A DNA stretch of 32,000 bases from Candidatus Heimdallarchaeota archaeon (GCA_030614005.1 JAUWKS010000015.1:27944-59943), one strand, 5' to 3'; shown: positions 680 through 26,673, counted from the first letter of the stretch. Notes: generated by a model from the sequence alone, not told the origin. A program made the numbers and translations.

Positions 680-716
680 GCGGGGGTAGCCCAGCTAGGT
701 CAAAGGCGCAGGGTTT
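680..716 (+). pseudogene. Orphan 5' half of a tRNA-Leu (acceptor 5' strand, D arm, anticodon stem 5' strand, U32-U33-U34)
   Basis: GCGGGGGTAGCCCAGCTAGGTCAAAGGCGCAGGGTTT is 33/37 identical to 7494-7530; no T-arm or acceptor 3' strand follows. Confidence 0.85.
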
Positions 717-1069
717 CGTTTCGTACCTTAATCATTTCTCCCTCAATATTTCAAAAGCTATGTGAGCATGAAGTTCTTCATGTTCCTCCCATAATTACAA
801 CAAAGCAATCTATTTATAAGGAAGGAAAAAAATTTCCCTTTTACTTTTTTCCGATTTTAAAAAGTTGATCTTAAGAACACCAAATAAATTTGAGAAAGCA
901 ATTTGGTGTGGGAAAGAACTCAAACCCCTGAACTCCTAAGAGGGAGAAAGTGTAACGAATAGCTACAAAATTTTAGCTATTTATAAGTATAAAATTTAAA
1001 AGTTAACATAGGATACTATTTATTAAAAAGAATTTTACCTGCATTTTCATTCATAAGGTAGGGATTTAA

Positions 1070-2287
1070 ATGAAAAATAACTTGAAAGGCATAGGATTAA
1101 AAGTTGATATAAAATCAGATGTGGATAATTACAATAGTAATTATGAAGAATATTTTGCAAGATTTGGGATATTTAATGGTTCGTTTCTTGAACGAAATAA
1201 ACCTGGGATAACAAAACAATTCAATTTTATAATTGATCCAGAAACATCTTTTCTAAATTATCCAAAAAAATTAATTAGAGAGCACGATTTAGTATTTCAA
1301 TATACAAACAAATTAACTGATGGAAATTTTAAGAAACGTCATCTCATTGAGGATGGCAAAGAATATCTTGATCCAGAATTCATTAGAGAAAGACTTGTTC
1401 CTTTGACAGAAAATGTTTTACAAATCGAAAGAGGACATTTGTCTTTTGAAGATAAGTCAATAGCTAATGGTATCGAAAACACTCCAATATTTGTGAGCAA
1501 TTACTCAGCACCTTATTTTTCATTGATGATTGAAACGTATCCCGATGAAATGGTTGAATTAAACGTCGAAAGTTATTCATTAATGAATGAACGAATCAGT
1601 AAGGAGGATGTTAAATTTAACAATATAATTTCCATTATTGAGTTATCTCTTAATGATCTTAAATATGAAGTTGAAACAAAAAACTGTATTTCGAAAATAC
1701 TATCAAAAAACCTATCTAAATCTATTTCTTTGAAATTAATCAGATATGGTAATCCATTAACAGAAGTTCAGTTACGAACTCTTTATAGAATACTGAAATG
1801 GTTGAAAGAGAAGAATTATACAATAATTTCGCAAAATTTAGGTCTTGAAGGCACTATTTTATCGTGGTTATTAAGAGTTCCTCTTATAAGTAGAGGATGT
1901 TTTTCTGAGCGAATAAACAAGAGAAAAAAAATAGAGGAAAGAAAAGAAGATGATAAAAAAGAAAAAGTTGGTCCATTCTTTCCTTCTGAAAAAAGATTAT
2001 ATGACCCAAATACATTCCATTTTAGAAAAAACGTGAAATGTAATTGTGATTATTGTAGGATAAGAAAGGCAGGAAAAGATGGAACACACGATTATGCATC
2101 TTTGGGCCATAATTTCAGTGCATTAATTAATGAAAATCAAGACATGGTATCAATTAAACATCAAAACCTAAAAGGTCTAATTCAACTCAAACTTGAGGAA
2201 GCTATTAGAGAAAGCAATAATTTAGGTATAAAAAAATATCATGTGAATAAATTGAAGAGAACTATGAAAATAATTTCTGAGGAATAA
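1070..2287 (+). CDS. Hypothetical protein, possibly tRNA-guanine transglycosylase (TGT)-superfamily-like, with a C-terminal Zn site
   Basis: C-terminal KCNCDYC...ASLGHNF resembles the TGT CxCxxC...H(N) zinc site; catalytic Asp motifs not recognisable. Confidence 0.4.
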   Translation: MKNNLKGIGLKVDIKSDVDNYNSNYEEYFARFGIFNGSFLERNKPGITKQFNFIIDPETSFLNYPKKLIREHDLVFQYTNKLTDGNFKKRHLIEDGKEYLDPEFIRERLVPLTENVLQIERGHLSFEDKSIANGIENTPIFVSNYSAPYFSLMIETYPDEMVELNVESYSLMNERISKEDVKFNNIISIIELSLNDLKYEVETKNCISKILSKNLSKSISLKLIRYGNPLTEVQLRTLYRILKWLKEKNYTIISQNLGLEGTILSWLLRVPLISRGCFSERINKRKKIEERKEDDKKEKVGPFFPSEKRLYDPNTFHFRKNVKCNCDYCRIRKAGKDGTHDYASLGHNFSALINENQDMVSIKHQNLKGLIQLKLEEAIRESNNLGIKKYHVNKLKRTMKIISEE

Positions 2288-2290
2288 CAA

Positions 2291-3658
2291 ATGGAAATTT
2301 TAGGTTATATACTATCAAGTTTTGCTACCGTTATAACAACTCTTCTAATAACATTCATTTTATTATTGTTTGGTAATCGAAAAAAAGGTAAGGAATATTT
2401 CCCTCAATTTGAATCTCTATATCTTCATTTAATAGATAAAATTTACGATTTAGAAAAGAAGCGTTTTATTACAACAAAAATATCACAAGAAAAATCATTA
2501 AATTATGTTAAAAAGGCTGTTTCTTGGAAATATTTTTGCTTTGGCATCAAAATTAGATTTACTAACAGAGATGAAGGCAAAGTTACTTTTCAAACACTAT
2601 TAAGGAAAATTCAGAAAAAGCTCATTGATAGCAGTTCAAAGATGGATAAAATTATTGTTGAAAACCTACTTTTATTTTACTTGTTGGAAAAAAAGTTCCT
2701 ACCAAATACATTTCGAACAAGCTATGAAAATGAATATAAAAAACATCGAATAGAAATACTAAACAAATATAAAATTGACGAAATGCAATTTCAAACATTA
2801 TATAGAAAATATATTTCCAAATCAAAGAAAAAAATACCATCAGCTGTTCTTAAAGAAATAGTGTTTCTACAAAAAAAGACTGAAAATTCATTAGATAAAA
2901 TATTAAATGATATATTGTCAAATATAATTAAGTATGTTCACAAATTAATGAAGGAATTAAAAGTTGATTTAAAACCTTATATTATGCAAATTGACAAAGA
3001 AGAATTATCTGTATTTTTCATTCAATATAAAATTAAATTAAAAGACCCACGTAATATAATGATTGAGGCATTAAAAAAGGCTAATTTTAGCAAATTATAT
3101 CCATTGCATTACACATGGATTAAAGTTGTAGAAAATTCAGAGCTAGCTATAGCAGAAAATATTGAAAAATGGCTAACAAGTAGATTAGGAAATGCTATTA
3201 AAAAAGCAAAAAAAGAAGGAGGAGGAAAATTCTTGATTTTTAAATTTTCATTAAAAAATTATCTAGAAAAAAATCTTGGTTTAGAAGATGATCCATATAT
3301 CTTTACAGATGCATTAGAATTACAGTTTAATGAAAACAAATCTTTAATGGAGAAATACATGTTAACTAAAGATATGGATAAACACTATCCACAATTGAAT
3401 CCAGCAAATTTTCTAATGAATCCTTTAACATTTATTAATTGTATCTTAGAAAAGGACATTAATGAGAACGAATTTAAAGAAATACTACAAACTCACAAGA
3501 TAGCTGTTGATAATACACTGGAATTAGATGCGATAAAAAAGGAAACATTAAAAGAAGCTTTTTCATTGTCTGAAAGAGACTATAAACACTTAAAACAGGC
3601 TATAAGCACAGTAGATTTAATTACATCTGATTTAACAGGATTAATATATGGATTCTAA
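2291..3658 (+). CDS. Hypothetical protein with an N-terminal transmembrane helix; probably co-transcribed with 1070-2287
   Basis: 455-aa ORF 3 nt after the upstream stop; hydrophobic N-terminus ILGYILSSFATVITTLLITFILLLFG. Confidence 0.7.
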   Translation: MEILGYILSSFATVITTLLITFILLLFGNRKKGKEYFPQFESLYLHLIDKIYDLEKKRFITTKISQEKSLNYVKKAVSWKYFCFGIKIRFTNRDEGKVTFQTLLRKIQKKLIDSSSKMDKIIVENLLLFYLLEKKFLPNTFRTSYENEYKKHRIEILNKYKIDEMQFQTLYRKYISKSKKKIPSAVLKEIVFLQKKTENSLDKILNDILSNIIKYVHKLMKELKVDLKPYIMQIDKEELSVFFIQYKIKLKDPRNIMIEALKKANFSKLYPLHYTWIKVVENSELAIAENIEKWLTSRLGNAIKKAKKEGGGKFLIFKFSLKNYLEKNLGLEDDPYIFTDALELQFNENKSLMEKYMLTKDMDKHYPQLNPANFLMNPLTFINCILEKDINENEFKEILQTHKIAVDNTLELDAIKKETLKEAFSLSERDYKHLKQAISTVDLITSDLTGLIYGF

Positions 3659-3852
3659 ATTAGAAAACACATTTAACAAATATTCTTTTTTTTATCAAAT
3701 TTAAGTAATTGATATTGAGATTAACAAAAAACTTGAATGAATATGATTGGTGAAGTGAATGTAATTCGAACATGTGAACTTCTGCAAAAGAATCTGAAAA
3801 GAAAGATTAGTATCATAATAATAATTTGAAAATTTTAATTTTTAGAAATTGC

Positions 3853-4365
3853 CTAATTATCAACATCAGGAGTAGTTAAATCCTGAAAGTCAGTGATTCG
3901 CATATTTTTATCTATTTCCCTCTGGAGAATTTCTTTTCGTTTTTCTTCTTGCATATCTTCTTCTGTTGGGAATATTTTCCACCACAATTTCTTAATTTGC
4001 TTTGGGATGACTATAAATGTAAGACCAAATATAATACCACAAACCAAAAAATACAAGAGAATATTAAAGATGTACTTCCAATCTTCACGTAAAAGATTTC
4101 CCCATTTAGATATTTCCTCACTATTAACAACTGATTGTAATAATTGTCCTGAAAATATAAAATAAAGTAGTGAAACAAAAGCACCTAATGCAACAACAAA
4201 TAAACCAACAAATAGAAGATAACCAATCTTCTTTAGGTTATTCGTAAACCATATTTTGACTTTATTCAAAAGAAAAAGAAATATTGCATAACTTATTCTT
4301 TGTCTTAATTTTAGGTCTCTCTCAATTAGAAATTCATTAAATTCCCTTTTATTTATATTTGTCAT
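3853..4365 (-). CDS. Hypothetical membrane protein (2-3 TM helices)
   Basis: 170-aa ORF with hydrophobic segments IGYLLFVGLFVVALGAFVSLLYFIF and YIFNILLYFLVCGIIFGLTFIVI. Confidence 0.7.
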   Translation of the reverse strand: MTNINKREFNEFLIERDLKLRQRISYAIFLFLLNKVKIWFTNNLKKIGYLLFVGLFVVALGAFVSLLYFIFSGQLLQSVVNSEEISKWGNLLREDWKYIFNILLYFLVCGIIFGLTFIVIPKQIKKLWWKIFPTEEDMQEEKRKEILQREIDKNMRITDFQDLTTPDVDN

Positions 4366-4438
4366 AATTACACCTGATTAAAAATAGTGGAATTATAATT
4401 TAAAGACGTTGTATTCAAATTTTGTAATACAAATTTGC

Positions 4439-4467
4439 AAAAAAAAAGTTATCCATAAAGGGATAAC
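4439..4467 (-). terminator. Hairpin plus U-tract terminator downstream of the 40-aa micro-ORF
   Basis: GTTATCC (4448-4454)/GGATAAC (4461-4467) stem next to A9 (4439-4447), which reads as T9 on the minus strand. Confidence 0.6.
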
Positions 4468-4487
4468 AGAATTTTGAAAACAATAGA

Positions 4488-4610
4488 TTATTCTTCTTCA
4501 TCTTCAGGATTAAGTTGTCTACTGCGATTATCCATATCATCCTTATGGGCGGAATTATTTGAATTTTTCACGTTAGAGCGTTGGTCATTACTGGATTGTC
4601 TTTTAGACAT
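4488..4610 (-). CDS. 40-aa polar micro-protein MSKRQSSNDQRSNVKNSNNSAHKDDMDNRSRQLNPEDEEE (absent from the ORF track)
   Basis: ATG at 4610, TAA at 4488-4490, strong GAGGTGAA ribosome-binding site at 4618-4625 (minus), own terminator. Confidence 0.75.
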   Translation of the reverse strand: MSKRQSSNDQRSNVKNSNNSAHKDDMDNRSRQLNPEDEEE

Positions 4611-4832
4611 TATGATTTTCACCTCTTTTTAGTAAATAAAAAGAAACGATAAACCACATGCTTCAAGAGTTTGTCCGGTTATAAGATCTAATCTTCTGGC
4701 AGAATGTTATCGATCATTCTTATGCAAACAGTACTATGAAGCACTTGAAATTCACCATTTCAAGGCAAGTAATCTGATGATTACTCAAAACTAAATTGTT
4801 CAACCACCAATAAAAACCTTAACAAATTCAGT

Positions 4833-5399
4833 CTAATTTTTATCAGTGATGTATTTTACTATCTTCATGAATAATTCCAATCCTTGAATAGCACATTCAT
4901 AACCAATTTTGGTTTGAAATTTTTTCGGATCAATATGCAATTTTATCGGTTCAGCATCAGGACCTCCAAAATATCCTTCTTCCATATTATATGGTAAACC
5001 TAAGGCCGAGAAGTGATTTCTGGTTTTAGGGTGTGCTATTTCATCTCGACATATTATCAGAAAATTTTCCAGCTCAGTAATAAGATCTTTTGATAGAAGA
5101 GAATTTATTAACTTGTAGAAATCTTTCCGAAACATCCTTTCTTGTAATTTGGACACTTTTGTCACATGCCAAAGTAGAAATTGTTCTATAGCAGAACCAA
5201 TGATTAAGGTTGAAGCTAAATAACATTCATTGAAAAATGCAATTGTAGCATTATGATACAATGGGATAGTATTGAAATCCTTAGGAACAATACTTTCAAT
5301 GTTATATTCTCTTTCTTTTTCCTTTAACCAACAGAATATTTCATACCTAAATTTTTGTCTTTTTTCCCGTTCTGTTTTAAACTCGTTAAAGCTAATCAT
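4833..5399 (-). CDS. HEPN-domain protein (DUF4145-like), putative RNase toxin
   Basis: N-terminal YLASTLIIGSAIE helix and the Rx4H motif RDEIAH; 188 aa. Confidence 0.7.
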   Translation of the reverse strand: MISFNEFKTEREKRQKFRYEIFCWLKEKEREYNIESIVPKDFNTIPLYHNATIAFFNECYLASTLIIGSAIEQFLLWHVTKVSKLQERMFRKDFYKLINSLLSKDLITELENFLIICRDEIAHPKTRNHFSALGLPYNMEEGYFGGPDAEPIKLHIDPKKFQTKIGYECAIQGLELFMKIVKYITDKN

Positions 5400-5511
5400 T
5401 CAAAAAAACCTCAGGATAAATACATCTTTCATAATTATATGTACTACTAAAAAAAGATATTATTGATTCGAAATGGAGAATTAGATTACATCTTACTGAT
5501 TGGTAATTGGT

Positions 5512-5670
5512 TTAACTATTCCGAATAATTATCGAATTATTTTCTAATGTTATGATAAGAGTATCACCTTTTTCAATATTCAATTCTTCGGCAATTTCAA
5601 GTGGAATGTTAATCATCAGACTATTATTATTATCCTGAACTTTTCGCTTAAATTTTATAGGCAATATCAT
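5512..5670 (-). CDS. AbrB/MazE/SpoVT-family DNA-binding protein, 52 aa (absent from the ORF track)
   Basis: MILPIKFKRKVQDNNNSLMINIPLEIAEELNIEKGDTLIITLENNSIIIRNS fits the family pattern S-x-x-I-x-I-P-x-x-I-x-x-x-L-x-I-x-x-G-D. Confidence 0.85.
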   Translation of the reverse strand: MILPIKFKRKVQDNNNSLMINIPLEIAEELNIEKGDTLIITLENNSIIIRNS

Positions 5671-5672
5671 TC

Positions 5673-5737
5673 ACCAACATAAAATTTGTTGGTAGAAGCA
5701 TTTAAATATTATTATTACCAATTGGTTATATGGTGGT
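5673..5737. promoter_or_regulatory. Divergent abrB/tnpB promoter: palindromic TATA flanked by two operator-like inverted repeats
   Basis: ATTTAAAT at 5700-5707 lies about 30 nt from both ATGs; ACCA-N13-TGGT at 5673-5693 and again at 5717-5737. Confidence 0.55.
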
Positions 5738-5740
5738 AAA

Positions 5741-7339
5741 ATGTCTTCATTCCTTAAAAAATATTACTTCAAAATAACACTTCCAGAAAACAAAAAGAAA
5801 TACTTGAGCAATTTCAAACAGTTGATAGAGAAGGCTACTAAACAATCATTAGAAAAACTTTGGTCGGAAGAATGGATAACACAATTAGGAATAACTACAG
5901 TAAAAGCACATTGCATCATTACAGCAGGACGTATAAGTATTGAGGAAGAAGGAAAGAAAATATATCTTCCCTCACGAGTGCGAATGGGGATTGCAGAACG
6001 AATCGGCAGAATTCTAAGAAGTCAATACAAGAGAATGAAATGTTTCAATGATTGTTTGAAAATCATGGAAATTGTAGGAGTTAATGAAAACGAAAGCAAA
6101 CTCATTAAACTATTGAACTTAACCTTTAGAAGTTATAAGAATAAACCATATTATAAGAAAGTGCTACTATTACAAAACATCCGACTGATTAAAAATTGGC
6201 AACAAAAAATTAGTATTGATTTTCATATGTTATCTTACTGTAACATAGTAAAACCAACAATCAAAAATTTTGTTTTTCCTTATGGACCAGATAACTACCG
6301 AGAATTAGATTATATGGTTAGGAATACCAGTATATGGTTCAAAATCAGACTACCTACAACAATCAATTCGAGAAGCATTAATGATTGGGAGTGGATAGAA
6401 GGGCTCATCCCTATACCTGAAAAATTACAAAAGAAAATAAATGAAAGCACAAACCAACACCCAAAGAAACCAAGAATGATAACAAAAACACTCAAAGGAG
6501 GAAAGGAATATTTCTTCTTCAGTTTCCCTTGGAATTTTGAAAAGAAAAAAGTGGTACAAAAAGAACGAACTCGTGCTCTTGCAGTCGATCTCGGTTTGAA
6601 GAAAATTGCTACTGCAGTAGTTTGTGAAAAGGACAAGCAATTATCAAAACCAATCTACCTTAAGATTACTTCTAAACAATATCAACATATTGAGCGATTA
6701 TTCAAACACCTTCAAGGGATATCTATTCAAATAAAAAGAAAAACAGGGAATCACCGAAAACAGCAGGAAGAACAGGCAAGAATTTATAGAAAGCTCTCTC
6801 GAATAAAACATCAACTTGTACAAACAACTACTACTATTCTTATTGACAAAGCGAAACAATGGAATTGTAGTGAAATCATTCTTGAGGATTTACGAATGTT
6901 CAGACCTAAGAAGGGATTAAGGAAATGGTCACGACGATTAAATGAATGGTTACATGGACAAATTGCTCAAATATTAGAGTATAAAACAAATGAAGAAGGA
7001 ATTAAACTACTAAAAGTCACTCCATGGGGAACATCTATCCATTGCCCAAGATGTACAAACACTCGAGGCTTGAAAGTTACAAGTCCAACAATTCTCACAC
7101 CAAAAAAAAGTGGGAGATGGTTCTATTGCCCAAATTGTGGATTCAATGCAGATAGAGATTATAACGCAGCTTTGAATATTTTCCGTGCAAGATTCATCAA
7201 TTATCGAAAAATAAAGAGTCTAAAAGACACCAGCCCTATCCCCTATATGGAGATAGGAATTCCTTCGCCCGACCGTTCTTGGCGAAGGTCCAGAAATGAT
7301 CTAACAACTACTCAAGTGGTGTTAGTGACTGGGGGGTAA
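5741..7339 (+). CDS. tnpB: TnpB (IS200/IS605-family RNA-guided nuclease, Cas12f-sized, 532 aa)
   Basis: RuvC-I AVDLGLK, RuvC-II ILEDL, Zn finger CPRC...CPNCG, RuvC-III DRDYNAALNI; no tnpA nearby. Confidence 0.9.
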   Translation: MSSFLKKYYFKITLPENKKKYLSNFKQLIEKATKQSLEKLWSEEWITQLGITTVKAHCIITAGRISIEEEGKKIYLPSRVRMGIAERIGRILRSQYKRMKCFNDCLKIMEIVGVNENESKLIKLLNLTFRSYKNKPYYKKVLLLQNIRLIKNWQQKISIDFHMLSYCNIVKPTIKNFVFPYGPDNYRELDYMVRNTSIWFKIRLPTTINSRSINDWEWIEGLIPIPEKLQKKINESTNQHPKKPRMITKTLKGGKEYFFFSFPWNFEKKKVVQKERTRALAVDLGLKKIATAVVCEKDKQLSKPIYLKITSKQYQHIERLFKHLQGISIQIKRKTGNHRKQQEEQARIYRKLSRIKHQLVQTTTTILIDKAKQWNCSEIILEDLRMFRPKKGLRKWSRRLNEWLHGQIAQILEYKTNEEGIKLLKVTPWGTSIHCPRCTNTRGLKVTSPTILTPKKSGRWFYCPNCGFNADRDYNAALNIFRARFINYRKIKSLKDTSPIPYMEIGIPSPDRSWRRSRNDLTTTQVVLVTGG

Positions 7340-13708: not shown

Positions 13709-13724
13709 TAAACAGGTGAATTAC

Positions 13725-18606: not shown

Positions 18607-19888
18607 ATTATTAATGAATAATATTGATTATCCTAATAGTTGGAAAAAAACTAAATTAACTAAAATTTTCAGGGTAATAAAAGGTCAAAGCTATAAAAGT
18701 GAATTTTACTGTAATGAAGAGAAAGGTAGAATTTTTATTAATTTAAAATGTATTCAGAAATTTGGTGGTTTTAATTTTGATGGTATAAAATTTTATTGTG
18801 GTAAAGTCGATGAAGAGAAATTAGTAAAACCTGGCGAGCTAATTATTGCTAATACTGATCTAACAAGAAAAGCTGATGTTGTAGGTTATCCAATTTATGT
18901 ACCTGATTTTTATTCTAACAAAGAAATCGCTACTTCAATGGATGTCTCAATTTTGAGACCAAAAAATAATTATATCTTACAAAAATTCTTTTATTATTTA
19001 TTAGGTTCGAAAAAAATTCATAATATAATTTCTTCGATTTCAGAAGGATCAACTGTCTTGCATTTGAATATTGATTTATTGAAGAAATTAGTTATACCTG
19101 TTCCTCCTATAATTGAACAAAAGAAGATTTCTGAAATATTGCAGTCCATTGATAATGATATTCAGAAAATTCAAGAAATAATTTCCAAAACTAAACTTCT
19201 TAAACAAGGTCTCCTCCAACAATTATTAACCAAAGGCATCGGTCACACGGAGTTCAAGGAGACGCCCCTCGGGAGGACACCAAAAGAATGGAAAATTGTA
19301 GAATTAAAAGATATATGTCATCAGATTACTGATGGAAAACATGGAGATTGTAGAAATCAGAATAATTCCGGTTATTATTTTATTAGCGTAAAGGATATGA
19401 TCGATAGTAAATTAGATTATTCTAAAGCAAGACAAATAGTAGAGGATGATTTTATTGAGACACATAGAAGAACACAATTAGAATGCGGTGATATACTAAT
19501 CGCTAGCACAGGTGCTACTATTGGAAAAATAGCAATAGCTGAAGATAAAATAAGAACTTCAAGAACAACATTTCAAAAAAGTGTAGCTATTATTAAACCT
19601 AATAAGGAGATAGTCGATTCAAAATACTTGGCATATTTTCTAGAACTCTCGAACAGGAGAATAAAAAAATCTTCATATGGAGGTGCACAAAAAAATCTTC
19701 TTCTTCGAGATTTAAGGAAATTTAAAGTGATCCTCCCAAAATTAAGTTTTCAAAAAGAGATAGTTCATTTGTTTTCACTAATTGATGAAAAATTAACAAT
19801 TGAGAAAAAAATTTTAATTAGATTACAGCTTTTAATGAAAGGTCTTATGCAACAACTTCTAACAGGAAAAATACGAGTAAAAATATAG
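18599..19888 (+). CDS. hsdS: Type I R-M specificity subunit
   Basis: Two TRDs with conserved repeats (VPPIIEQKKI...KQGLLQQLLTKG; KGLMQQLLTGKIRV); overlaps the hsdM stop. Confidence 0.95.
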   Translation: MSRLLMNNIDYPNSWKKTKLTKIFRVIKGQSYKSEFYCNEEKGRIFINLKCIQKFGGFNFDGIKFYCGKVDEEKLVKPGELIIANTDLTRKADVVGYPIYVPDFYSNKEIATSMDVSILRPKNNYILQKFFYYLLGSKKIHNIISSISEGSTVLHLNIDLLKKLVIPVPPIIEQKKISEILQSIDNDIQKIQEIISKTKLLKQGLLQQLLTKGIGHTEFKETPLGRTPKEWKIVELKDICHQITDGKHGDCRNQNNSGYYFISVKDMIDSKLDYSKARQIVEDDFIETHRRTQLECGDILIASTGATIGKIAIAEDKIRTSRTTFQKSVAIIKPNKEIVDSKYLAYFLELSNRRIKKSSYGGAQKNLLLRDLRKFKVILPKLSFQKEIVHLFSLIDEKLTIEKKILIRLQLLMKGLMQQLLTGKIRVKI

Positions 19889-19900
19889 AAGAGGAAAGAA

Positions 19901-22879
19901 ATGAAAAAGGAAAATTGGAATGAATATAATTTAACGGAAAAGCCATTCATAGAATTACTACAGACGATGGAGTATGAATACGTTAATGGAAGAGAAATCT
20001 CTCCAGATAGCAAAAATCCTGAAAGAAAAAATTATCGTGAAGTAATTTTAATTAATCGCTTAACTGCAGCTTTGAAACGTTTTAATCCTGTTATTAATGA
20101 TGCTAATATCAAGAAAATAATTTTTGATTTAACACACATTTCAGGTAACAGTCTTATTGAAATCAATGAAAAATTCCACACATATTTAATTAATTATCTT
20201 TCCATTGAGCAGGATGTTGGGCAAGGAAGAAAACATCAAACAGTAAAAATCATCGATTTTGAAAATCCTGAAAATAACGATTTCTTAGTAGTTAATCAAT
20301 TCAAAGTTGGTGGCACCAAAGAGAATATTATTCCAGATATTGTTGTTTTCATTAATGGTATCCCTTTAGCAGTTATTGAATGTAAAAGTCCTACTATTAT
20401 CAATCCTTTACATGATGCTATCAATCAATTACTTCGTTATCAAAATCTTCGTAGTCACTCAACTGTTGAAGGTGCTGAAATGTTATTCTATACTAGCCAA
20501 ATCATAGTTGCTACTTCAAATTATTCTGCTAAATACGCAACTACTGGTTCTAGAGCTCGTGATTATCGTGCTTGGAAAGATCCATACCCAAGAAAACTCT
20601 CAGATCTTGGTGATAAACCAACTGCTCAGGAAATTCTTATTGCAGGTATTTTTGATAAAAAGAACCTTTTAGATTTAATTCGAAATTTCATTGTTTTTGA
20701 ACGAAGTTATGGTCAAATAATTAAAAAGCTTGCAAGGTATCAACAATTCAGAGCAGTTAATAAAGCAATAGACCGGATTCTCAACACTAAAACTCTTAAA
20801 GAGCGTGGTGGAACCGTTTGGCATACTCAAGGTTCAGGTAAATCTCTTACTATGTTGTGGTTAGCAGTTAAATTAAGGCGCATTTCTGCTCTCAGAAATC
20901 CTACAATTGTAATACTCACTGATCGTATTGATTTAGATGACCAGATTTCATCTACTTTTCAAAAATGCAAGTTTCCTAATCCTGTTCAAGCATCTAGTAT
21001 TGATGATTTGCGACATCTATTGAGTGCTAGCCTAGGTCAAACCATCATGACCACTGTTCAGAAGTTCCTTTACAAAGAGGGGGAGAAAAAAGGTAAATTC
21101 CCCGTTCTTTCTCGGTCAGAAAATATCTTTGTTCTTGCCGATGAAGCTCATCGTACTCAATATAAACTACTCGCAACTAATATGAGAACTGCTATTCCTA
21201 ATGCTTGTTATCTAGGTTTTACTGGCACACCTTTAACTAAGCAAGAGAAAAGTACAGCGGGTAAATTTGGTTCTTATATTGATGTTTACGATATTCAGCA
21301 ATCTATCTCTGATGAAGCAACTGTTCCTATTTATTATGAAGGACGATTGCCTGATGTTTGGATTGTCAAAGGGGAAAGTTTAGATGAGATATTTGATCGT
21401 ATTTTCATAGATTTTTCAGGGAGAGAAAAGGAAGCTATTAAGAATCGTTATGCAACCATTAAATCTGTTGTTGAAGCTCCAGCCCGAATCGAAGAAATCT
21501 GTTTAGATATTATTAAACACTATGAACAATTCATTGCCCCTAATGGCTTCAAAGCTCAGATTGTCACTATGAGTCGCGAAGCAGCTGTTACTTATCAAGA
21601 AACTATTGAACGGTTGAATGGTCCTGAATCAGCTGTAATAATGTCTGGTTCTCCAAATGACCCTACGAAATTGAAGAATTATCATACTACAAAGGATCAA
21701 CAAAGACAGTTAATTAACCGTTTCCTAAAACACAGAAGTGATGATAAACTATCAATTCTAATTGTTTGTGATATGCTTCTCACAGGCTTTGATGCTCCAG
21801 TTGAGCAGGTTATGTATTTAGATAAACCCCTCAAAGAACACAATCTTCTGCAAGCTATTGCTCGAGTTAACCGCCCCTATAAACATAAAGATCATGGTCT
21901 AATTGTTGATTATTTTGGTGTTTCAAAACTGCTTGAACAAGCTTTAGCTATTTTTGACTCCGCAGATATTCAAGGCAGTCTAGATGATATTAAAAATGAA
22001 CTTCCTCGTTTAGAAGCAAGTCATCGAACTGCAATGAGTTTCTTTGAAGGAGTAAATAAAAAAGATCTTGAGGAATGTATTGCTATTCTTAAACCTGAGG
22101 ATAAAAGATTAAGGTTTGAAGGAGCTTTCAAGAAATTCTCTAAAAGTATGGAAATGCTTATGCCTGATCCTGTTGTTAATCCTTATCTTAGAGATCTCCT
22201 CCTTTTAGGCAAGATTAGGAATGCTGCTAGAAATCGTTATAGAGATGAGCAATTGAATCTTCAAGGTTGTAGTGCTAAAGTTAAGAAATTAATTGAAGAC
22301 CACATTAGAGCTTCAGGCGTAGATCCTATCAGCGAACCCATAGACATTTTTTCCAGCCAATTTCAAACTAGCGTTGACAAATTAGTTAATGATCGTGCTC
22401 GAGCCAGTGAAATAGAATATGCCTTAAAGAAAGCAATCAGTATAAAATTTGAAGAAAACCCAAGTTTTTATACTTCCCTTAGAAAAAGGTTAGAGGAAAT
22501 CATTGATTCCTACAAAGCAGAGCGACTAATCATTTCTGAGGTAGTGAAGCAGTTGAGGAAATTAGTTACTGAATCTCAAAATATCAAATCCACAGCTCAA
22601 TCTCTTGGCTTAGATGAAGATTCTTTTGCTATTTTTGGTTTATTAAATGATGAAATTACCGAGGACGTTGCAGATAATAGTTTTAAGGATTCAGCTCCTG
22701 AAATAGTTAAAATATTACAAGATTTGACAGTTATTGATTGGATAACCAAAGATGATATTCAACGAAGGATGCGTAAGAAACTTAAACTTCTTTTAATAAA
22801 GAAGAAATATCCGAAGGATAAAGTTGAACCAGTCATTTATCGGATACTTGATTTAGCTCGCGTTAGATTCCGACGATAA
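19901..22879 (+). CDS. hsdR: Type I R-M restriction subunit
   Basis: PD-(D/E)xK nuclease IPDIVVFINGIPLAVIECK, HTQGSGKS, DEAHR, FTGTP, MLLTGFDAP, QAIARVNR. Confidence 0.97.
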   Translation: MKKENWNEYNLTEKPFIELLQTMEYEYVNGREISPDSKNPERKNYREVILINRLTAALKRFNPVINDANIKKIIFDLTHISGNSLIEINEKFHTYLINYLSIEQDVGQGRKHQTVKIIDFENPENNDFLVVNQFKVGGTKENIIPDIVVFINGIPLAVIECKSPTIINPLHDAINQLLRYQNLRSHSTVEGAEMLFYTSQIIVATSNYSAKYATTGSRARDYRAWKDPYPRKLSDLGDKPTAQEILIAGIFDKKNLLDLIRNFIVFERSYGQIIKKLARYQQFRAVNKAIDRILNTKTLKERGGTVWHTQGSGKSLTMLWLAVKLRRISALRNPTIVILTDRIDLDDQISSTFQKCKFPNPVQASSIDDLRHLLSASLGQTIMTTVQKFLYKEGEKKGKFPVLSRSENIFVLADEAHRTQYKLLATNMRTAIPNACYLGFTGTPLTKQEKSTAGKFGSYIDVYDIQQSISDEATVPIYYEGRLPDVWIVKGESLDEIFDRIFIDFSGREKEAIKNRYATIKSVVEAPARIEEICLDIIKHYEQFIAPNGFKAQIVTMSREAAVTYQETIERLNGPESAVIMSGSPNDPTKLKNYHTTKDQQRQLINRFLKHRSDDKLSILIVCDMLLTGFDAPVEQVMYLDKPLKEHNLLQAIARVNRPYKHKDHGLIVDYFGVSKLLEQALAIFDSADIQGSLDDIKNELPRLEASHRTAMSFFEGVNKKDLEECIAILKPEDKRLRFEGAFKKFSKSMEMLMPDPVVNPYLRDLLLLGKIRNAARNRYRDEQLNLQGCSAKVKKLIEDHIRASGVDPISEPIDIFSSQFQTSVDKLVNDRARASEIEYALKKAISIKFEENPSFYTSLRKRLEEIIDSYKAERLIISEVVKQLRKLVTESQNIKSTAQSLGLDEDSFAIFGLLNDEITEDVADNSFKDSAPEIVKILQDLTVIDWITKDDIQRRMRKKLKLLLIKKKYPKDKVEPVIYRILDLARVRFRR

Positions 22880-22906
22880 TATAAATGACAATTATAATAC
22901 AATTAT

Positions 22907-23644
22907 GTGGTATTTATGACTCATGTGATGTTTGGTAAAACAAAAATTGATTATAAAACGGAAATAAGCAACAAACGCAAAACCGTTGGCGTTTCAGTTG
23001 ATTATAATAATGGAGTCATTGTTACTTTACCAAAGAATATATCACAAGAAGAAATCGATAGAGTTGTTCTCCAAAAAGCTCCCTGGATTTTAGACAAGTT
23101 ACATGAATTTGGTGAAGTTATTATCAAACCATCTGATAATGAATTTGTTAGTGGTGAGAAATACCTCTATCTAGGCAGAGGTTACAGATTAAAGGTTATT
23201 GAGAGCGAAGATGTCATTAAACCTAGTCTAGTTTTTTACAGGGGAAAATTCCTTGTTACCATTAACAATAATATTACTGAAGAGGAACAAACACAAATAG
23301 TCAGAGATCAAATTCTTAAATGGTACATAGAAAAAGCAGAACTATTCCTTAAAGAGAGGGTTAGCATTCTTTCTGAGAAAACCGGCATACAACCTCAAGG
23401 AATGAGGGTCAGAGAACAACAGAAAAGATGGGGTAGCTGTACCAAAGATAACATCTTGATTTTCAACAGGTTAATTATTATGGCTCCTGTATCTGTAATC
23501 GATTATATTATTATTCATGAACTCTGTCATCTAAAATATCCTAATCATTCAGAGAACTTTTGGAAAGAGGTAGCTGTTTTTTGCCCAGACTTTCAAAATA
23601 GAAGAGATTGGTTGAGAATAAGAGGACCAGAATTATCATTTTAG
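22907..23644 (+). CDS. M48/YgjP (DUF45)-family metal-dependent hydrolase, commonly found next to type I R-M
   Basis: QQKRWGSC and IDYIIIHELCHL (HExxH). Confidence 0.9.
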   Translation: MVFMTHVMFGKTKIDYKTEISNKRKTVGVSVDYNNGVIVTLPKNISQEEIDRVVLQKAPWILDKLHEFGEVIIKPSDNEFVSGEKYLYLGRGYRLKVIESEDVIKPSLVFYRGKFLVTINNNITEEEQTQIVRDQILKWYIEKAELFLKERVSILSEKTGIQPQGMRVREQQKRWGSCTKDNILIFNRLIIMAPVSVIDYIIIHELCHLKYPNHSENFWKEVAVFCPDFQNRRDWLRIRGPELSF

Positions 23645-23952
23645 ATAACAATAACATTTTTTATTTTATGATGAGTAAAATTGTTACTATCAGATATTTC
23701 TTTGATTGTTAATATACACAACTTAGTGTTGTACCTTCCAGTTTAACTTCGATAACACTTAGTGGGTTACCATCTATTAATAGTAAATAATCAGAAAACC
23801 CTGTACTTAGCGGAAACACCTGTAACCAAAAGGACAAAGGGAGGAAAAGGAAAAATTAGTATAATTGGATATAAAATTCACTCATAAAAAATCACAAATA
23901 ATCAAATCTCTTAAATAATATACAAGAGCTGTAAGTGTAAAGGGTTAGAAAA

Positions 23953-25740
23953 ATGGATGACTTATTAGAAAAGGAATTAAAAAAACCTTCTTTAATTAAA
24001 AATCCAAGAATCTTAGATTTAAAATATATACCAAAGAAACTTCTTCACAGAGAAGACGAACAAAAGATGTTAATCAAATATTTCAAACCAGTTATTGAAG
24101 ATCCTGGTAAGTATTCTCAAAATGTAACAATTATTGGTCCTGTAGGAACTGGAAAAACAGCTATTGCTCTTAAATTTGGGGAAATGATTAAAGTATATTC
24201 AGCTCGAAAGAATCTGAATTTGGAATATGTTCATGTAAATTGCCGTAGAGCTCGATCAGCTTTTCTTACTCTACTTGAGGTTGCGAGAAAATTTAATCCG
24301 AATATATCGGTCAAAAAATTTTTACCAGATGAAATTATTAACATGCTTGTTAACTTACTTAGTCAAAGGAATTCTTTTTTGATTATTACATTAGATGAAA
24401 TTGATTTTATTATTCGGAAGGAAGGTTCAGATTTTCTTTATGATATGACCAGACTTACTGATGATAAACTGGATGAGAAGGAACGGATATCTCTTATTAC
24501 AATAGCACGTGAAAGTGAATTTAGAAAATTATTGGACGATAGTACTCTTAGTACTTTAAGACAAAATATAATTTCATTAGTACCGTATAATGAAGATCAA
24601 TTAAGGGATATAATAAAAGATAGAGCAAATGAAGCTTTTTATGAAGATACAGTTTCAGCAGAAGCTATTGATTTAATTTCAGATATAACTTCGAGAAAAG
24701 GAGATACCAGATTTGCTATTGAATTGTTGGAACGTGCTGGTATGTATGCAGATCACAAACAGTCACTAAAAGTTTTACCTGAACATGTAAGACATGCAAA
24801 TGCCTTGATTCATCCCTCAATTGGACAGGAAATTGTTACAGATTTAACAATTCATCAACAAATCATTCTATTAGCTATCGCAAAACAACTTCTGTCAACT
24901 AATAATGCATATGTGACTTTGGTTGAGGTAAAAACTGTTGACAGAGAACTGTGTAAAGATTATATGCTACCAATAAGCGAACATGCACTAATATTGGAAA
25001 ATCTTCAACATTTAGAATATTGTAATTTGATTGCAATAAAATATAGTAAAAAAGAGAAGAAAAAGCAACAGACCTTGATTAGTTTGTTGGATGTTTCAGC
25101 TGAAATAATTAAGAAGACAATTAAAGAACAATTACAAAAAACTACAAATGTTGTAAATGCAATTAAGCTTAAAGATAAAGATACGACCGAAGATAAATTA
25201 GTAAAAGATGTAAAAAAACTTCTAAAAATCTCATTTGAAGGAAATTTCTTTGACGTTAAAAGAGCATATGATAAAATAACCAGAGCAGAAATGACCAAAG
25301 ATATAATCGCTTTAGTAAATTCATCAGAAGAAAATGACAATACCGCATATGCAATAATTGGTATTGTAGAAATAAATCAAAAATTCGTATCAGCAGTAAA
25401 TGTGGAGAAAATTGATGTCATAGAACAAAAGATTGTGGATTGTATAAAATACAACACTAATCGAAAAATAAACCTACAAATAAGAAAAATAAGAATCTAT
25501 GAGCTCTATCTGTGGCAACAAAATAACGAAATTACAGATGAGATAGTTTTTAAAGAAGAACAGAAAAAACCGGAAAGCAAAGAGCAAATATTAGTAATAC
25601 AATTAAAGAGAGAATCAAGAGTTGTATATGAGTTGGCAAAGAAAACAGGATCATATGAAAAAGGGAGATCGTGGAAAAGAATTGGGTCACATACAGATGA
25701 ATTAACGCAAGATGATAGAGAAAAGCTAATGAAATTATAA
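23953..25740 (+). CDS. cdc6: Cdc6/Orc1 AAA+ replication initiator with a C-terminal Schlafen/AlbA_2-like domain
   Basis: LLHREDE, Walker A GPVGTGKT, Walker B LDEID, GDTRFAIELL, wHTH; the extra ~180 aa contain EGNFFDVK, KDIIALVNS, AIIGI and WKRIGSHT. Confidence 0.85.
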   Translation: MDDLLEKELKKPSLIKNPRILDLKYIPKKLLHREDEQKMLIKYFKPVIEDPGKYSQNVTIIGPVGTGKTAIALKFGEMIKVYSARKNLNLEYVHVNCRRARSAFLTLLEVARKFNPNISVKKFLPDEIINMLVNLLSQRNSFLIITLDEIDFIIRKEGSDFLYDMTRLTDDKLDEKERISLITIARESEFRKLLDDSTLSTLRQNIISLVPYNEDQLRDIIKDRANEAFYEDTVSAEAIDLISDITSRKGDTRFAIELLERAGMYADHKQSLKVLPEHVRHANALIHPSIGQEIVTDLTIHQQIILLAIAKQLLSTNNAYVTLVEVKTVDRELCKDYMLPISEHALILENLQHLEYCNLIAIKYSKKEKKKQQTLISLLDVSAEIIKKTIKEQLQKTTNVVNAIKLKDKDTTEDKLVKDVKKLLKISFEGNFFDVKRAYDKITRAEMTKDIIALVNSSEENDNTAYAIIGIVEINQKFVSAVNVEKIDVIEQKIVDCIKYNTNRKINLQIRKIRIYELYLWQQNNEITDEIVFKEEQKKPESKEQILVIQLKRESRVVYELAKKTGSYEKGRSWKRIGSHTDELTQDDREKLMKL

Positions 25741-25819
25741 ATTAACAATATAGTAAAGGATTAATTCTGAAAGATTTGAAATCAGTAAGAAAAGGAAATC
25801 TCTTGAGCACAAGTAAGAT

Positions 25820-25867
25820 ATCTTGTTTTGTAGAAGTTCGCGCGTTCGAATCGCGCACTCCGCACCA
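25820..25867 (+). repeat. Orphan, decayed 3' half of a tRNA-Leu (att-like)
   Basis: ATCTTG-TTTTGTAGAAGTTC-GCGCG-TTCGAAT-CGCGC-ACTCCGC-ACCA is colinear without gaps with 7534-7581; no 5' half upstream. Confidence 0.85.
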
Positions 25868-26661: not shown

Positions 26662-26673
26662 TTTCTGTGTCCC

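What the first reader, a model, noticed from the sequence alone, without database searches (positions are those of the whole stretch)
680..25867. tRNA-Leu present three times: 5' half, whole gene, 3' half, with no recombinase in between
Seen: an orphan 5' half (680-716, 33/37 identical to the intact gene) next to the left housekeeping gene, an intact tRNA-Leu(UAG) at 7494-7581, and an orphan 3' half (25821-25867, 37/47 identical, mostly C>T/G>A) 25 kb away towards the right housekeeping genes. Both halves break at the anticodon loop. Known: tRNA-targeting elements usually duplicate only the 3' part. Inference: either two elements integrated on opposite sides, one supplying a replacement 5' half plus promoter, or one 25-kb element split a host tRNA-Leu and carries its own. 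The 680 half can pair with the 7535-7581 half using two G-U wobbles (7:66, 31:39), which fits the first model. The 3' half also differs from the intact gene by A>G in the T-loop and T>C in the T-stem, against the AT drift, so it may come from a different tRNA-Leu allele.
Basis: partly seen in the sequence, partly recalled or inferred. Interest (0 to 1): 0.75.

Follow-up and report, generated by a model that had tools for sequence, protein, structure and literature searches.

The report
Host tRNA-Leu split by genomic island
In this Heimdallarchaeota genome the only tRNA-Leu(UAG) gene was broken at its anticodon loop by about 25 kb of foreign DNA that carries its own working copy, leaving dead 5' and 3' halves of the original gene at the island's two edges; the pattern is clear, but its parts have precedents in archaea.

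Summary
It has an intact tRNA-Leu(UAG) at 7494-7581, an orphan 5' half at 680-716 and an orphan 3' half at 25821-25867. Two weak, decayed, inverted 3' halves lie at 905-942 and 3749-3794.

Five relatives (four of the same genus, one of a sister genus) have JAMM, tRNA-Leu(UAG) and ABC directly adjacent, so this is the empty site. The orphans and their outer flanks are orthologous to the two sides of that gene. The intact gene is a different allele with compensatory pairs (A7-U66, A31-U39). It is the only UAG copy in the assembly.

A second species (G010) shares the island's skeleton, so misassembly is unlikely. A third (G009) has an independent 3'-side insertion with the predicted G7·U66 chimeric tRNA.

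"No recombinase" is only partly right. There is no tyrosine recombinase, by six-frame search, and no serine recombinase in the larger ORFs, by Pfam. But the 1378-aa protein has a Cas1-fold domain, and TnpB and a LAGLIDADG-HTH protein are present.

My best reading (0.52) is a composite island built by successive insertions: first a 3'-side element, then a 5'-side one. A single insertion carrying its own tRNA is the main rival (0.27). A functional trans-spliced split tRNA is rejected.

The closest precedent is Caldiarchaeum tRNA-Thr (Sugahara 2012). I rate this a new variant of a known kind.

The parts
680..716 (+). Orphan 5' half of the host tRNA-Leu(UAG): positions 1-34 are host allele, followed by TTT. 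The native upstream flank is retained.
   Evidence: 36/37 identical to the G001 gene and 33/37 to the intact gene. nhmmer E=1.5e-8. Window 1-716 is collinear with G001 up to this point.
905..942 (-). Weak candidate: a decayed, inverted tRNA-Leu 3' half with a GGGG-type T arm.
   Evidence: nhmmer E=0.24 over profile positions 48-87. Sequence read. Not significant on its own.
943..3748 (+). G000-specific cassette with two ORFs of 405 and 455 aa that match no family. It is bracketed by the two weak inverted 3'-half-like pieces.
   Evidence: No Pfam, NCBIfam or PADLOC match. Absent from G010, where homology to the window begins at 3870.
3749..3794 (-). Weak candidate: a heavily C>T/G>A-decayed, inverted copy of the island-type 3' half plus its post-CCA flank.
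   Evidence: nhmmer E=0.39. It shares CCAATCATATT with the intact gene's 3' end and flank.
3853..7339 (.). Right part of the 5'-side insertion: ORF170(-), ORF188(-) and TnpB(+) at 5741-7339. It is shared with G010, except ORF188.
   Evidence: TnpB matches Pfam PF07282 and PF01385. blastn to G010 gives 81-86% identity. ORF170 was found only in G000 and G010 among 12 family genomes.
7458..7466 (+). TATA-like box (TTTATAAAA) about 30 nt upstream of the intact tRNA, inside the 5'-side insertion.
   Evidence: Read from the sequence. The region is conserved in G010. Its function is inferred.
7494..7581 (+). Intact, intron-less tRNA-Leu(UAG) of the island allele. It is the only UAG copy in the assembly.
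   Evidence: It differs from the G001 allele at 11 positions, including compensatory 7:66 (A-U versus G-C) and 31:39 pairs.
7682..9307 (+). LAGLIDADG plus XRE-HTH protein, the first gene after the tRNA.
   Evidence: Pfam PF14528 and HTH_3. There is a recombination breakpoint against G010 at about 8208.
9572..13708 (+). Giant 1378-aa protein with a Cas1-fold domain at about residues 880-1200. It is the candidate integrase.
   Evidence: AF2 pLDDT 85. The top Foldseek PDB hits are all Cas1 or casposase, E down to 6e-7. E, H and D-x-x-E are invariant in 17 homologs. Pfam and PDB sequence searches are negative.
13692..16883 (+). DEAD/DEAH helicase with an MrfA-type Zn domain and a metallophosphoesterase. 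It is the third gene of the repeated module (module about 7630-16964).
   Evidence: Pfam. The module recurs on C48+C29, C8+C18 and C86 at 85-89% nt identity.
17011..23644 (+). Type I restriction-modification system (hsdM, hsdS, hsdR) plus a YgjP-like metallopeptidase: defence cargo.
   Evidence: Pfam. Absent from the G010 island.
23953..25740 (+). Island-borne Orc1/Cdc6 with a 200-aa C-terminal extension. It marks a captured replicon.
   Evidence: NCBIfam ORC1-type, E=1.5e-83. It is 64-68% identical to the genus's native Orc1, while the natives are 82-99% alike. It is shared with G010 at 88-89%.
25797..25820 (+). About 24 nt just upstream of the 3' orphan that resemble the 3' part of the anticodon-loop intron of the orthologous G004 gene.
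   Evidence: Local alignment against the G004 loop plus intron, permutation p=0.003. Moderate evidence.
25821..25867 (+). Orphan 3' half of the host tRNA-Leu(UAG), from the anticodon-stem 3' strand to CCA, followed by the native flank leading to ABC.
   Evidence: nhmmer E=8e-9. Window 25824-25945 is collinear with G001 directly after its tRNA. G010 has the orthologous orphan.

Best explanation
The ancestral locus was JAMM, tRNA-Leu(UAG), ABC. The tRNA gene is an insertion hot spot in this Heimdallarchaeota genus. In the G000/G010 lineage I infer at least two successive insertions, one on each side of the anticodon loop.

Step 1 (inferred). An extrachromosomal replicon carrying an Orc1/Cdc6 gene recombined with the host gene at or near the anticodon loop. 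Its own 3' part completed the host 5' part, with G7·U66 and G31·U39 wobbles. The host's original 3' exon, together with a piece of its intron, was pushed about 18 kb downstream next to ABC.

Step 2 (inferred). A second piece of foreign DNA, carrying a promoter and a tRNA 5' half with A7 and A31, recombined on the 5' side. This restored Watson-Crick pairs and left the host promoter and 5' exon stranded next to JAMM.

Result (shown). The working tRNA is entirely island-derived and is the only tRNA-Leu(UAG) gene, so the island cannot be lost without it. The two orphans are dead remnants.

Later events (partly shown by comparison with G010). The cargo was reshuffled by recombination and further insertions: a defence module with a Cas1-fold protein, type I R-M, TnpB, and a two-ORF cassette. 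Whatever conventional integrase acted has been lost.
For: - Empty site. G001, G002, G003, G004 and G011 have JAMM, tRNA-Leu(UAG) and ABC adjacent. Window 1-716 and 25824 onward are collinear with G001 on either side of its tRNA.
- Natural step-1 state. In G009, JAMM is followed by a tRNA with a host-type 5' part (G7, CTAGG) and island-type loop, A31-U39 and U66. The LAGLIDADG and Cas1-like genes come next, and a 31-nt 3' orphan sits just before ABC.
- Directionality. Host 5' with island 3' gives two G·U pairs. The reverse chimera would give two A·C mismatches (sequences).
- Different make-up of the two sides. GC is 0.25-0.32 for 700-7000 and 0.30-0.38 for 7000-25000.
- Intron asymmetry. The 3' orphan is preceded by about 24 nt resembling the 3' part of the orthologous G004 intron (p=0.003). 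The 5' orphan's flank shows no intron similarity (p=0.37). This fits an intron-bearing gene at step 1 and an intron-less one at step 2.
- Local crossover signature. The 5' orphan is host-type through position 34 and then carries the island-type T35 (TTT).
- Serial insertion. Two more decayed 3'-half-like pieces lie inside the left part. Other G000 tRNAs also have orphan fragments without integrases: Arg(UCG) has a perfect 30-nt repeat 6 kb away, and there are four Ala-like 3' fragments.
- Captured replicon. The island Orc1/Cdc6 is a divergent xenolog.
- Precedent. 5'-side duplication with a reconstituted tRNA is described in PMC3293823.
Against: - No integrase of any conventional family is present in the window, or at the comparable islands examined. 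The recombination mechanism is therefore inferred.
- The two host breakpoints coincide within a few nucleotides. A single insertion explains that more simply.
- No genome with step 1 alone was found in the G000 lineage. G009's event is independent, with a different junction and orphan length.
- G010 lacks the 5' orphan, so the 5'-side junction is documented in one species only, plus a contig from a second study.
- The intron similarity is modest and not significant for G010 (p=0.10).
- The flank phylogeny is discordant, so the order of events cannot be read from a tree.
Confidence: 0.52

Rival explanations
1. Single insertion. One composite element, or a chunk of foreign chromosome, that already carried its own complete tRNA-Leu(UAG) was inserted into the anticodon loop or the 37/38 intron of the host gene. 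The insertion could have been by transposition, illegitimate recombination or double-strand-break repair. It split the host gene once, and the two orphans are the two sides of that single break.
For: - Both orphans break at the same place, after 34-37 and from about 39-41.
- The intact gene has coherent compensatory pairs across both halves (A7-U66, A31-U39), as expected of one co-evolved gene.
- The 3' orphan keeps intron-like sequence, and the orthologous G004 gene has an intron exactly there.
- A Cas1-fold protein, TnpB and a LAGLIDADG nuclease-like protein are on board.
- Left and right conserved blocks show similar G000-G010 divergence, 81-89%.
Against: - No terminal inverted repeats or target-site duplication bracket 717-25820.
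- The 5' flank shows no intron similarity and the anticodon is missing.
- The left and right parts differ in GC.
- The island is visibly mosaic. The Cas1 module is truncated at both ends relative to its other copies, and extra 3'-half-like pieces lie inside it.
- G009 shows that the tRNA-module linkage can arise by a 3'-side event alone.
Confidence: 0.27
2. Nuclease-driven homing island. The island spreads into empty alleles by homologous recombination, using the orphans and their flanks as homology arms. A break in the host-type tRNA would be made by the island's LAGLIDADG-HTH protein or TnpB. The island's own tRNA escapes cleavage because its anticodon stem-loop differs.
For: - Four of the 11 differences between host and island alleles cluster symmetrically around the anticodon (31, 32, 38, 39).
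- The LAGLIDADG gene is the first gene after the tRNA in G000, G010 and G009.
- G010's similarity switches from G000-like to G001-like right at the 3' orphan, which suggests island transfer by flank recombination.
- A homing-endonuclease-like gene was proposed to direct site-specific integration of Heimdall element HeimM2 (PMC8813620).
Against: - The same LAGLIDADG-HTH/Cas1-like/helicase module sits away from any tRNA in other Heimdall genomes and in other G000 copies. The protein therefore looks like a module regulator, being fused to an XRE HTH.
- No cleavage data exist.
- This TnpB has no other copy in the assembly that would define its ends or its guide.
Confidence: 0.07
3. Functional split tRNA. 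The two orphans are transcribed separately and trans-spliced into a second tRNA-Leu, as in Nanoarchaeum or Caldivirga.
For: - The 5' orphan keeps its native upstream region and is 36/37 identical to a functional ortholog.
- Half of this genome's detected tRNAs carry introns, so the splicing machinery is active.
Against: - The 5' orphan has no UAG anticodon (GCAGGG-TTTCGTT).
- The acceptor stem would have G7·A66 and G5·U68.
- The leader and trailer flanks cofold no better than shuffled flanks: -49.2 versus -52.2±3.6 kcal/mol.
- The 3' orphan diverges at about the same rate as its neighbouring DNA (79% versus 79-83%).
- An intact gene for the same isoacceptor exists.
Confidence: 0.02
4. Assembly artefact. 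The MAG contig was joined wrongly at repeated tRNA sequence.
For: Short-read contigs of public runs break at the tRNA copies. This is a metagenome bin with 3.4% contamination.
Against: - The exact repeats are only 15 and 9 nt long, shorter than usual assembly k-mers.
- G010, an independent MAG, has the same TnpB-tRNA-LAGLIDADG and Orc1-orphan-ABC junctions.
- A contig from a different study covers 684-1181, and others cover 6826-7903.
Confidence: 0.02

Closest known systems
tRNA-Thr(GGU) locus heterogeneity in Caldiarchaeum subterraneum (Sugahara et al. 2012, PMC3293823)
   Same: A 5' fragment of a tRNA with its native upstream flank lies upstream of a reconstituted intact tRNA, with a foreign insertion in between. 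Intron content changes during integration. The authors interpret this as mobile-element integration followed by recombination.
   Different: In Caldiarchaeum the insertion is 1.8 kb, encodes a putative recombinase next to the tRNA, and only the 5' side is affected. Here both sides of the same gene are displaced, the insert totals about 25 kb of defence and replication cargo, no conventional recombinase remains, and the event removed an intron rather than adding one.
Archaeal tRNA-targeted integrative elements with SSV-type or pNOB8-type tyrosine integrases, and 'gene capture' after integrase decay (as summarised in PMC3293823; the gene-capture concept is from my own knowledge of She and co-workers)
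   Same: Partial tRNA direct repeats bracket foreign DNA. The reconstituted tRNA inherits element-derived bases. Elements become fixed when the integrase is lost. An Orc1/Cdc6-type replication gene is carried.
   Different: No integrase, whole or partitioned, is detectable. No open frame running through the tRNA-derived pieces matched an integrase family. Both a 5' and a 3' duplication surround one gene.
Family 2 casposons in Methanosarcina tRNA-Leu genes, co-resident with other elements (Krupovic et al. 2016, PMC4779613)
   Same: A Cas1-family protein is encoded in an element next to a tRNA-Leu gene. Several unrelated elements pile up at the same tRNA.
   Different: Casposons have a PolB gene, terminal inverted repeats and a 14-bp target duplication in the 3'-distal part of the tRNA. 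None of these was found here. The Cas1-fold domain sits inside a 1378-aa protein, and most copies of the module are not next to tRNAs.
Trans-spliced split tRNA genes (Nanoarchaeum, Caldivirga; 'recently split' tRNAs, Chan et al. 2011, PMC3218864, known to me only from its abstract)
   Same: A tRNA gene is separated into a 5' and a 3' piece at the anticodon-loop/intron position in an intron-rich archaeon.
   Different: The pieces here are not functional: there is no anticodon, no complementary flanks, and mismatches in the acceptor stem. An intact gene for the isoacceptor exists.
Heimdallarchaeal mobile elements integrated at tRNA genes (Wu et al. 2022, PMC8813620)
   Same: The same phylum, with integration next to tRNA genes. 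A homing-endonuclease-like gene was proposed to direct site choice in one element (HeimM2).
   Different: Those elements were described with integrases or giant Otus/Ephialtes genes. A text search of that paper found no mention of Cas1, casposon or LAGLIDADG.

Membership tests
tRNA-targeted integrative element / genomic island (tyrosine-integrase type) | Foreign DNA bracketed by direct repeats that are partial copies of the target tRNA | tested here: met
   5' repeat 676-716 / 7490-7530 at 88%. 3' repeat 7535-7581 / 25821-25867 at 37/47. nhmmer E about 1e-8 for both orphans.
tRNA-targeted integrative element / genomic island (tyrosine-integrase type) | An uninterrupted target site in related genomes | tested here: met
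   JAMM, tRNA-Leu(UAG) and ABC are contiguous in G001, G002, G003, G004 and G011.
tRNA-targeted integrative element / genomic island (tyrosine-integrase type) | An integrase gene (tyrosine or serine recombinase), intact beside the att site or partitioned across it | tested here: not met
   Pfam, NCBIfam and PADLOC on the larger ORFs. Six-frame PF00589 hits only contig C58, and PF16795 gives none. The short stop-to-stop frames across the tRNA-derived pieces were listed but not scanned individually.
tRNA-targeted integrative element / genomic island (tyrosine-integrase type) | Excision or a circular form | tested here: inconclusive
   Logan contigs of 4 runs show no joint across the island within window 1-20000. 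The one 715>7540 joint is the tRNA-Leu(CAG) paralog.
Casposon | Cas1-family integrase (casposase) | tested here: met
   Met by fold only. AF2 model of residues 880-1200 has pLDDT 85; top PDB hits are Cas1 and casposase 6OPM, E 6e-7 to 1e-5, TM about 0.5. E/H/D-x-x-E are invariant. Pfam Cas_Cas1 is not hit.
Casposon | Family B DNA polymerase gene in the element | tested here: not met
   No PolB domain in any ORF of 70 aa or more by Pfam or NCBIfam.
Casposon | Terminal inverted repeats and a target-site duplication of about 14-15 bp | tested here: not met
   No inverted repeat pairs the ends of 717-25820 or of the module 7630-16964. The window's module copy is truncated at both ends relative to other copies.
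Trans-spliced split tRNA | Complementary 3' trailer and 5' leader that bring the halves together in a bulge-helix-bulge | tested here: not met
   Cofold energy is -49.2 kcal/mol against -52.2±3.6 for shuffled flanks.
Trans-spliced split tRNA | The halves together encode a complete tRNA with an anticodon and a paired acceptor stem | tested here: not met
   No UAG in the 5' piece. 7:66 is G·A and 5:68 is G·U (sequences).
IS200/IS605-family element | TnpB, with or without a TnpA transposase, with defined ends and other copies | tested here: inconclusive
   TnpB domains are present at 5741-7339. There is no TnpA, and no second copy in G000 to define the ends.

The most novel reading that the evidence does not exclude
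The island is maintained and spread by a nuclease or Cas1-based mechanism rather than a classical integrase. One route: the LAGLIDADG-HTH protein or TnpB cuts host-type tRNA-Leu(UAG), so the island 'homes' into empty alleles using the orphan halves as homology arms. The other route: the Cas1-fold giant protein acts as a PolB-less, casposase-like integrase that targets tRNA-Leu. In either case the element makes itself indispensable by destroying the host's only tRNA-Leu(UAG) and supplying a cleavage-resistant, intron-less replacement. As a by-product, mobile elements would strip or donate tRNA introns in Asgard archaea.
Probability: 0.1. Interest if true: 0.85.

Novelty: new variant of a known kind. 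Interest (0 to 1): 0.5.

Why it matters
This locus shows a host tRNA gene being taken apart from both sides and functionally replaced by a mobile-element copy. The empty site and a natural one-sided insertion (in another species) are preserved in sister species.

Three questions are touched.
- How disrupted and split tRNA genes arise in archaea. Integration of mobile elements at the anticodon loop has long been proposed but rarely caught.
- How tRNA introns are lost or gained in Asgard archaea. A 2026 preprint (10.64898/2026.10.13.758758) found no general route. Here an intron-bearing ortholog, an intron remnant on the displaced 3' half and an intron-less reconstituted gene point to mobile elements as one route.
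- How islands become irreversible. This island carries the only tRNA-Leu(UAG) gene.

The locus also marks tRNA-Leu(UAG) as a defence-island hot spot in Heimdallarchaeota, and it places a multi-copy module with a Cas1-fold protein at that hot spot.

Tried and rejected
- Split SSV-type integrase. I listed stop-to-stop frames across all three tRNA pieces; they are mostly short and were not scanned individually. The six-frame PF00589 and PF16795 searches found nothing in this contig.
- Cas1 by sequence. Pfam on five sub-fragments, phmmer and a 17-sequence profile against PDB sequences were all negative. Only the fold search recognised Cas1.
- Terminal inverted repeats or target duplications around the island. 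None found.
- Donor of the island tRNA allele. None closer than G010 among 82 genomes of the class.
- Chimeric host-5'/island-3' tRNA in metagenome contigs. An exact-pattern scan found nothing. A broader pattern in genome contigs was unspecific, because the tRNA-Leu core is conserved across archaea.
- Integrases at comparable islands. The G005:C33 2.3-kb island, the G000 tRNA-Arg island with a perfect 30-nt repeat, and the G000 tRNA-Ala fragment array have none.
- Association of TnpB with the module. The window's TnpB is only about 27% identical to the divergently oriented TnpB next to other module copies, so it is not orthologous.
- The 10-bp inverted repeat 735-744/940-949 as an inversion scar (lead from e1-5394434). 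About 0.2 such repeats are expected by chance in that stretch, and the re-inverted product still lacks an anticodon. Left open.
- Intron 5' part next to the 5' orphan. Not significant (p=0.37).
- Ordering events by phylogeny of the flanks. The flanks are discordant: JAMM is star-like, while ABC-MFS groups G001 with G010.
- RNA evidence. No RNA holder was listed among public runs.
- Read laying. Only low-depth contigs were available and no excision joint was seen.

Full report
**What is there.**
The window is G000:C63:27944-59943 of a 3.6-Mb MAG that is 90% complete. Names of homologs and of sister MAGs place it in Candidatus Heimdallarchaeota from cold-seep sediment.

ARAGORN finds one tRNA, Leu(UAG), at 7494-7581, and Rfam tRNA scores 50.2 bits. 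The orphan 5' half at 680-716 is 33/37 identical to it. The orphan 3' half at 25821-25867 is 37/47 identical. A profile of ten Leu tRNAs from the genus finds both with E about 1e-8.

The same search gives two weak inverted hits, at 942-905 (E=0.24) and 3794-3749 (E=0.39). The second is credible. It is a C>T/G>A-decayed copy of the island-type 3' half, and it keeps the post-CCA flank ATCATATT of the intact gene. The window therefore holds three firm tRNA-Leu-derived pieces and two candidates.

**The empty site.**
In G001 (same genus), window 1-716 aligns up to the middle of an intact, intron-less tRNA-Leu(UAG). Window 25824-25945 continues from the middle of that same tRNA. Window 29519 onward (ABC, MFS) follows directly.

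JAMM, tRNA-Leu(UAG) and ABC are also contiguous in G002, G003, G004 and, in a sister genus, G011. The 5' orphan is 34/34 identical to the G001 gene up to the anticodon stem, then reads TTT where G001 has CTT. The 3' orphan starts at the 3' strand of the anticodon stem.

About 25.1 kb (717-25820) is therefore inserted in the anticodon loop of the ancestral gene. A further 3.6 kb (about 25947-29522: dCTP deaminase and two unknown genes) is a separate insertion bounded by a 36-bp direct repeat of host intergenic sequence.

**The intact gene is foreign.**
It differs from the G001 allele at 11 of 88 positions. These include two compensatory pairs: 7:66 is A-U instead of G-C, and 31:39 is A-U instead of G-C. 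Loop positions 32 and 38 also differ. Only G010 shares this allele among 82 genomes of the class. It is the only tRNA-Leu(UAG) in the assembly. It has a TATA-like box about 30 nt upstream, inside the inserted DNA.

**Not an artefact, and old.**
G010 is an independent MAG. It has the same blocks: ORF170, TnpB, tRNA and the first 175 codons of the LAGLIDADG gene at 81-86% nt identity, and Orc1/Cdc6, 3' orphan and ABC at 89.5%. Its middle cargo is different and it has no 5' orphan; a HEAT-Schlafen gene abuts JAMM there.

The exact repeats between the tRNA copies are only 15 and 9 nt. Contigs from two studies cover the junction regions, including 684-1181 and 6826-7903 in a second study. The only 'joint', 715>7540, is the tRNA-Leu(CAG) paralog.

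**An independent one-sided event.**
In G009, JAMM is followed directly by a tRNA-Leu(UAG). Its 5' part is host-type (G7, CTAGG D-loop). Its loop, A31-U39 and U66 are island-type, which gives G7·U66. The LAGLIDADG-HTH and giant-protein genes come next. On another contig a 31-nt 3' orphan sits just upstream of ABC.

The junction sequence and the orphan length differ from G000 and G010, so this is a separate insertion at the same tRNA.

**Recombinases.**
No tyrosine recombinase is found. Pfam, NCBIfam and PADLOC on the larger ORFs give none. Six-frame searches with PF00589 hit only contig C58, and PF16795 hits nothing. Serine recombinases were checked only through Pfam on ORFs of 145 aa or more.

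Following a lead from an earlier scan note (e1-5394440), I tested the 1378-aa protein. Sequence methods see nothing. Seventeen Heimdallarchaeota homologs keep E, H and D-x-x-E invariant in a LEAQSN ... GLFHRRKT ... YFDLIEPVR context. An AlphaFold model of residues 880-1200 (pLDDT 85) matches only Cas1 and casposase structures at the top of the PDB list (E down to 6e-7, probability 1.0, TM about 0.5).

So a Cas1-fold, potentially integrase-like domain is present, besides TnpB (5741-7339) and a LAGLIDADG-HTH protein (7682-9307).

The module LAGLIDADG-HTH / Cas1-like / helicase-phosphoesterase (about 7630-16964) recurs at 85-89% nt identity on C48+C29, C8+C18 and C86 of the same assembly, and in other Heimdall MAGs. 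There it sits next to a divergently oriented TnpB and not next to a tRNA. The window's copy is truncated at both ends, so it looks like recombined cargo rather than the agent of the original insertion.

**Captured replicon.**
The Orc1/Cdc6 at 23953-25740 is 64-68% identical to the native Orc1 of the genus. The native copies are 82-99% identical to each other, and in G009 and G010 they lie about 32 kb beyond ABC. The island copy also carries a 200-aa extension. This fits a captured extrachromosomal element.

**One insertion or two?**
Several points favour two or more steps.
- The G009 one-sided state exists.
- Wobble logic gives a viable order only if the 3' side came first.
- The left and right parts differ in GC (0.25-0.32 versus 0.30-0.38).
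- The left part is itself composite, with a G000-specific two-ORF cassette between two decayed 3'-half-like pieces.
- There is an intron asymmetry. The orthologous G004 gene has a 37-nt intron at 37/38. The 24 nt upstream of the G000 3' orphan resemble the 3' part of that intron (p=0.003). The flank of the 5' orphan shows nothing (p=0.37). A crossover in the anticodon loop of an intron-bearing gene would displace intron plus 3' exon and create an intron-less gene. A later 5'-side event would then leave no intron next to the 5' orphan.

Other points favour one step.
- The two breakpoints coincide within a few nucleotides.
- The compensatory pairs span both halves of the intact gene.
- No G000-lineage intermediate was found.

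Flank phylogeny cannot decide. ABC-MFS groups G001 with G010 (91%) against G000 (79-83%), JAMM is star-like, and the island ends group G000 with G010. This indicates recombination around the locus, perhaps transfer of the island by flank homology. I put the multi-step model at about 0.5 and the single insertion at about 0.27.

**Function of the orphans.**
They are dead.
- The 5' piece has no UAG anticodon.
- The acceptor stem formed with the 3' piece would contain G·A and G·U.
- The flanks show no complementarity beyond shuffles.
- The 3' piece diverges like its surroundings.

**Comparison with what is known.**
The closest case is Caldiarchaeum tRNA-Thr(GGU). There a 5' fragment, a 1.8-kb insertion with a putative recombinase and a reconstituted tRNA coexist, with an intron gained in the process (PMC3293823). 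That paper also notes that archaeal att sites can be the 5' or the 3' end of a tRNA.

Casposons and unrelated elements share a tRNA-Leu target in Methanosarcina (PMC4779613). Heimdall elements integrate at tRNAs (PMC8813620).

New here is that both sides of one gene are displaced, so the working tRNA is wholly exogenous. The cargo also includes a Cas1-fold module and a replication initiator, and no conventional integrase remains. Similar integrase-less tRNA islands occur elsewhere in this genome: tRNA-Arg with a perfect 30-nt repeat, and four tRNA-Ala-like fragments.

**Verdict.**
I class it as a new variant of a known kind, of moderate interest.

Noticed in passing
window 9572-13708 (residues about 880-1200): The giant 1378-aa protein, restricted to Heimdallarchaeota in the searches made, contains a Cas1-fold domain with invariant E/H/D-x-x-E. 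Pfam and PDB sequence searches miss it. There is no CRISPR array, Cas2 or PolB nearby.
   Followed up: partly
window about 7630-16964; G000 contigs C48+C29, C8+C18, C86: The LAGLIDADG-HTH / Cas1-like / helicase-phosphoesterase module is present in at least two or three further copies in the same assembly at 85-89% nt identity. Typical copies have a divergently oriented TnpB and a conserved palindromic intergenic region upstream, and a further reverse-strand gene downstream. The window copy lacks all three. The copies could be true paralogs or a co-binned relative.
   Followed up: partly
window 23953-25740; G010:C6:80016-81644; G009:C47:33871-35067: The island-borne Orc1/Cdc6 is a divergent xenolog, 64-68% identical to a native Orc1 that is otherwise 82-99% conserved and lies about 32 kb beyond ABC in relatives. 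No native copy is in the G000 assembly, whose contig ends 2 kb after MFS.
   Followed up: partly
window 25911-25946 and 29523-29558: A 36-bp direct repeat of host intergenic sequence brackets a 3.6-kb cassette (dCTP deaminase-like gene plus 469-aa and 155-aa unknowns). The cassette is absent from G001 and G010, and removing it restores the G001 arrangement.
   Followed up: partly
L061 (G004:C393) 3090-3214; L063 (G011:C283) 4275-4384: The orthologous tRNA-Leu(UAG) carries a 37-nt anticodon-loop intron in G004 and a D-loop insertion in G011. It is intron-less in G001, G002, G003 and G009. Sixteen of the 33 tRNAs detected in G000 have introns.
   Followed up: partly
G000:C7:19117-25179 (L080); G000:C110:51077-58449 (L081): tRNA-Arg(UCG) has a perfect 30-nt copy of its 3' end 6 kb downstream, with a TnpB fragment right after the tRNA and no integrase. 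Four tRNA-Ala-like 3' fragments lie within 7.4 kb on C110. Integrase-less tRNA islands seem common in this genome.
   Followed up: partly
window about 8208 versus L029 about 10574: G000-G010 identity drops from 86% nt to 43% aa inside the LAGLIDADG-HTH gene. This is a recombination breakpoint, and it suggests cargo exchange between conserved island ends.
   Followed up: no
L029 (G010:C6:30000-49999) 1-1807: Upstream of JAMM, G010 has a second, degenerate module on the other strand: a LAGLIDADG N-terminal part directly followed by the helicase C-terminal part, with the Cas1-like gene deleted.
   Followed up: no
window 5741-7493: The TnpB gene ends 155 nt before the intact tRNA. If the element's right end abuts the tRNA, the guide of its RNA would be the first bases of the tRNA. 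The tRNA's TATA-like box lies in this stretch.
   Followed up: no
L062 (G005:C33) 9791-12207: tRNA-Leu(CAG) is followed 2.3 kb downstream by a decayed 3' half preceded by the same intron-like block (GTGAGACAT|CTTG) as in the G004 UAG intron. This is another case where the displaced 3' half keeps intron sequence while the working gene has none.
   Followed up: partly
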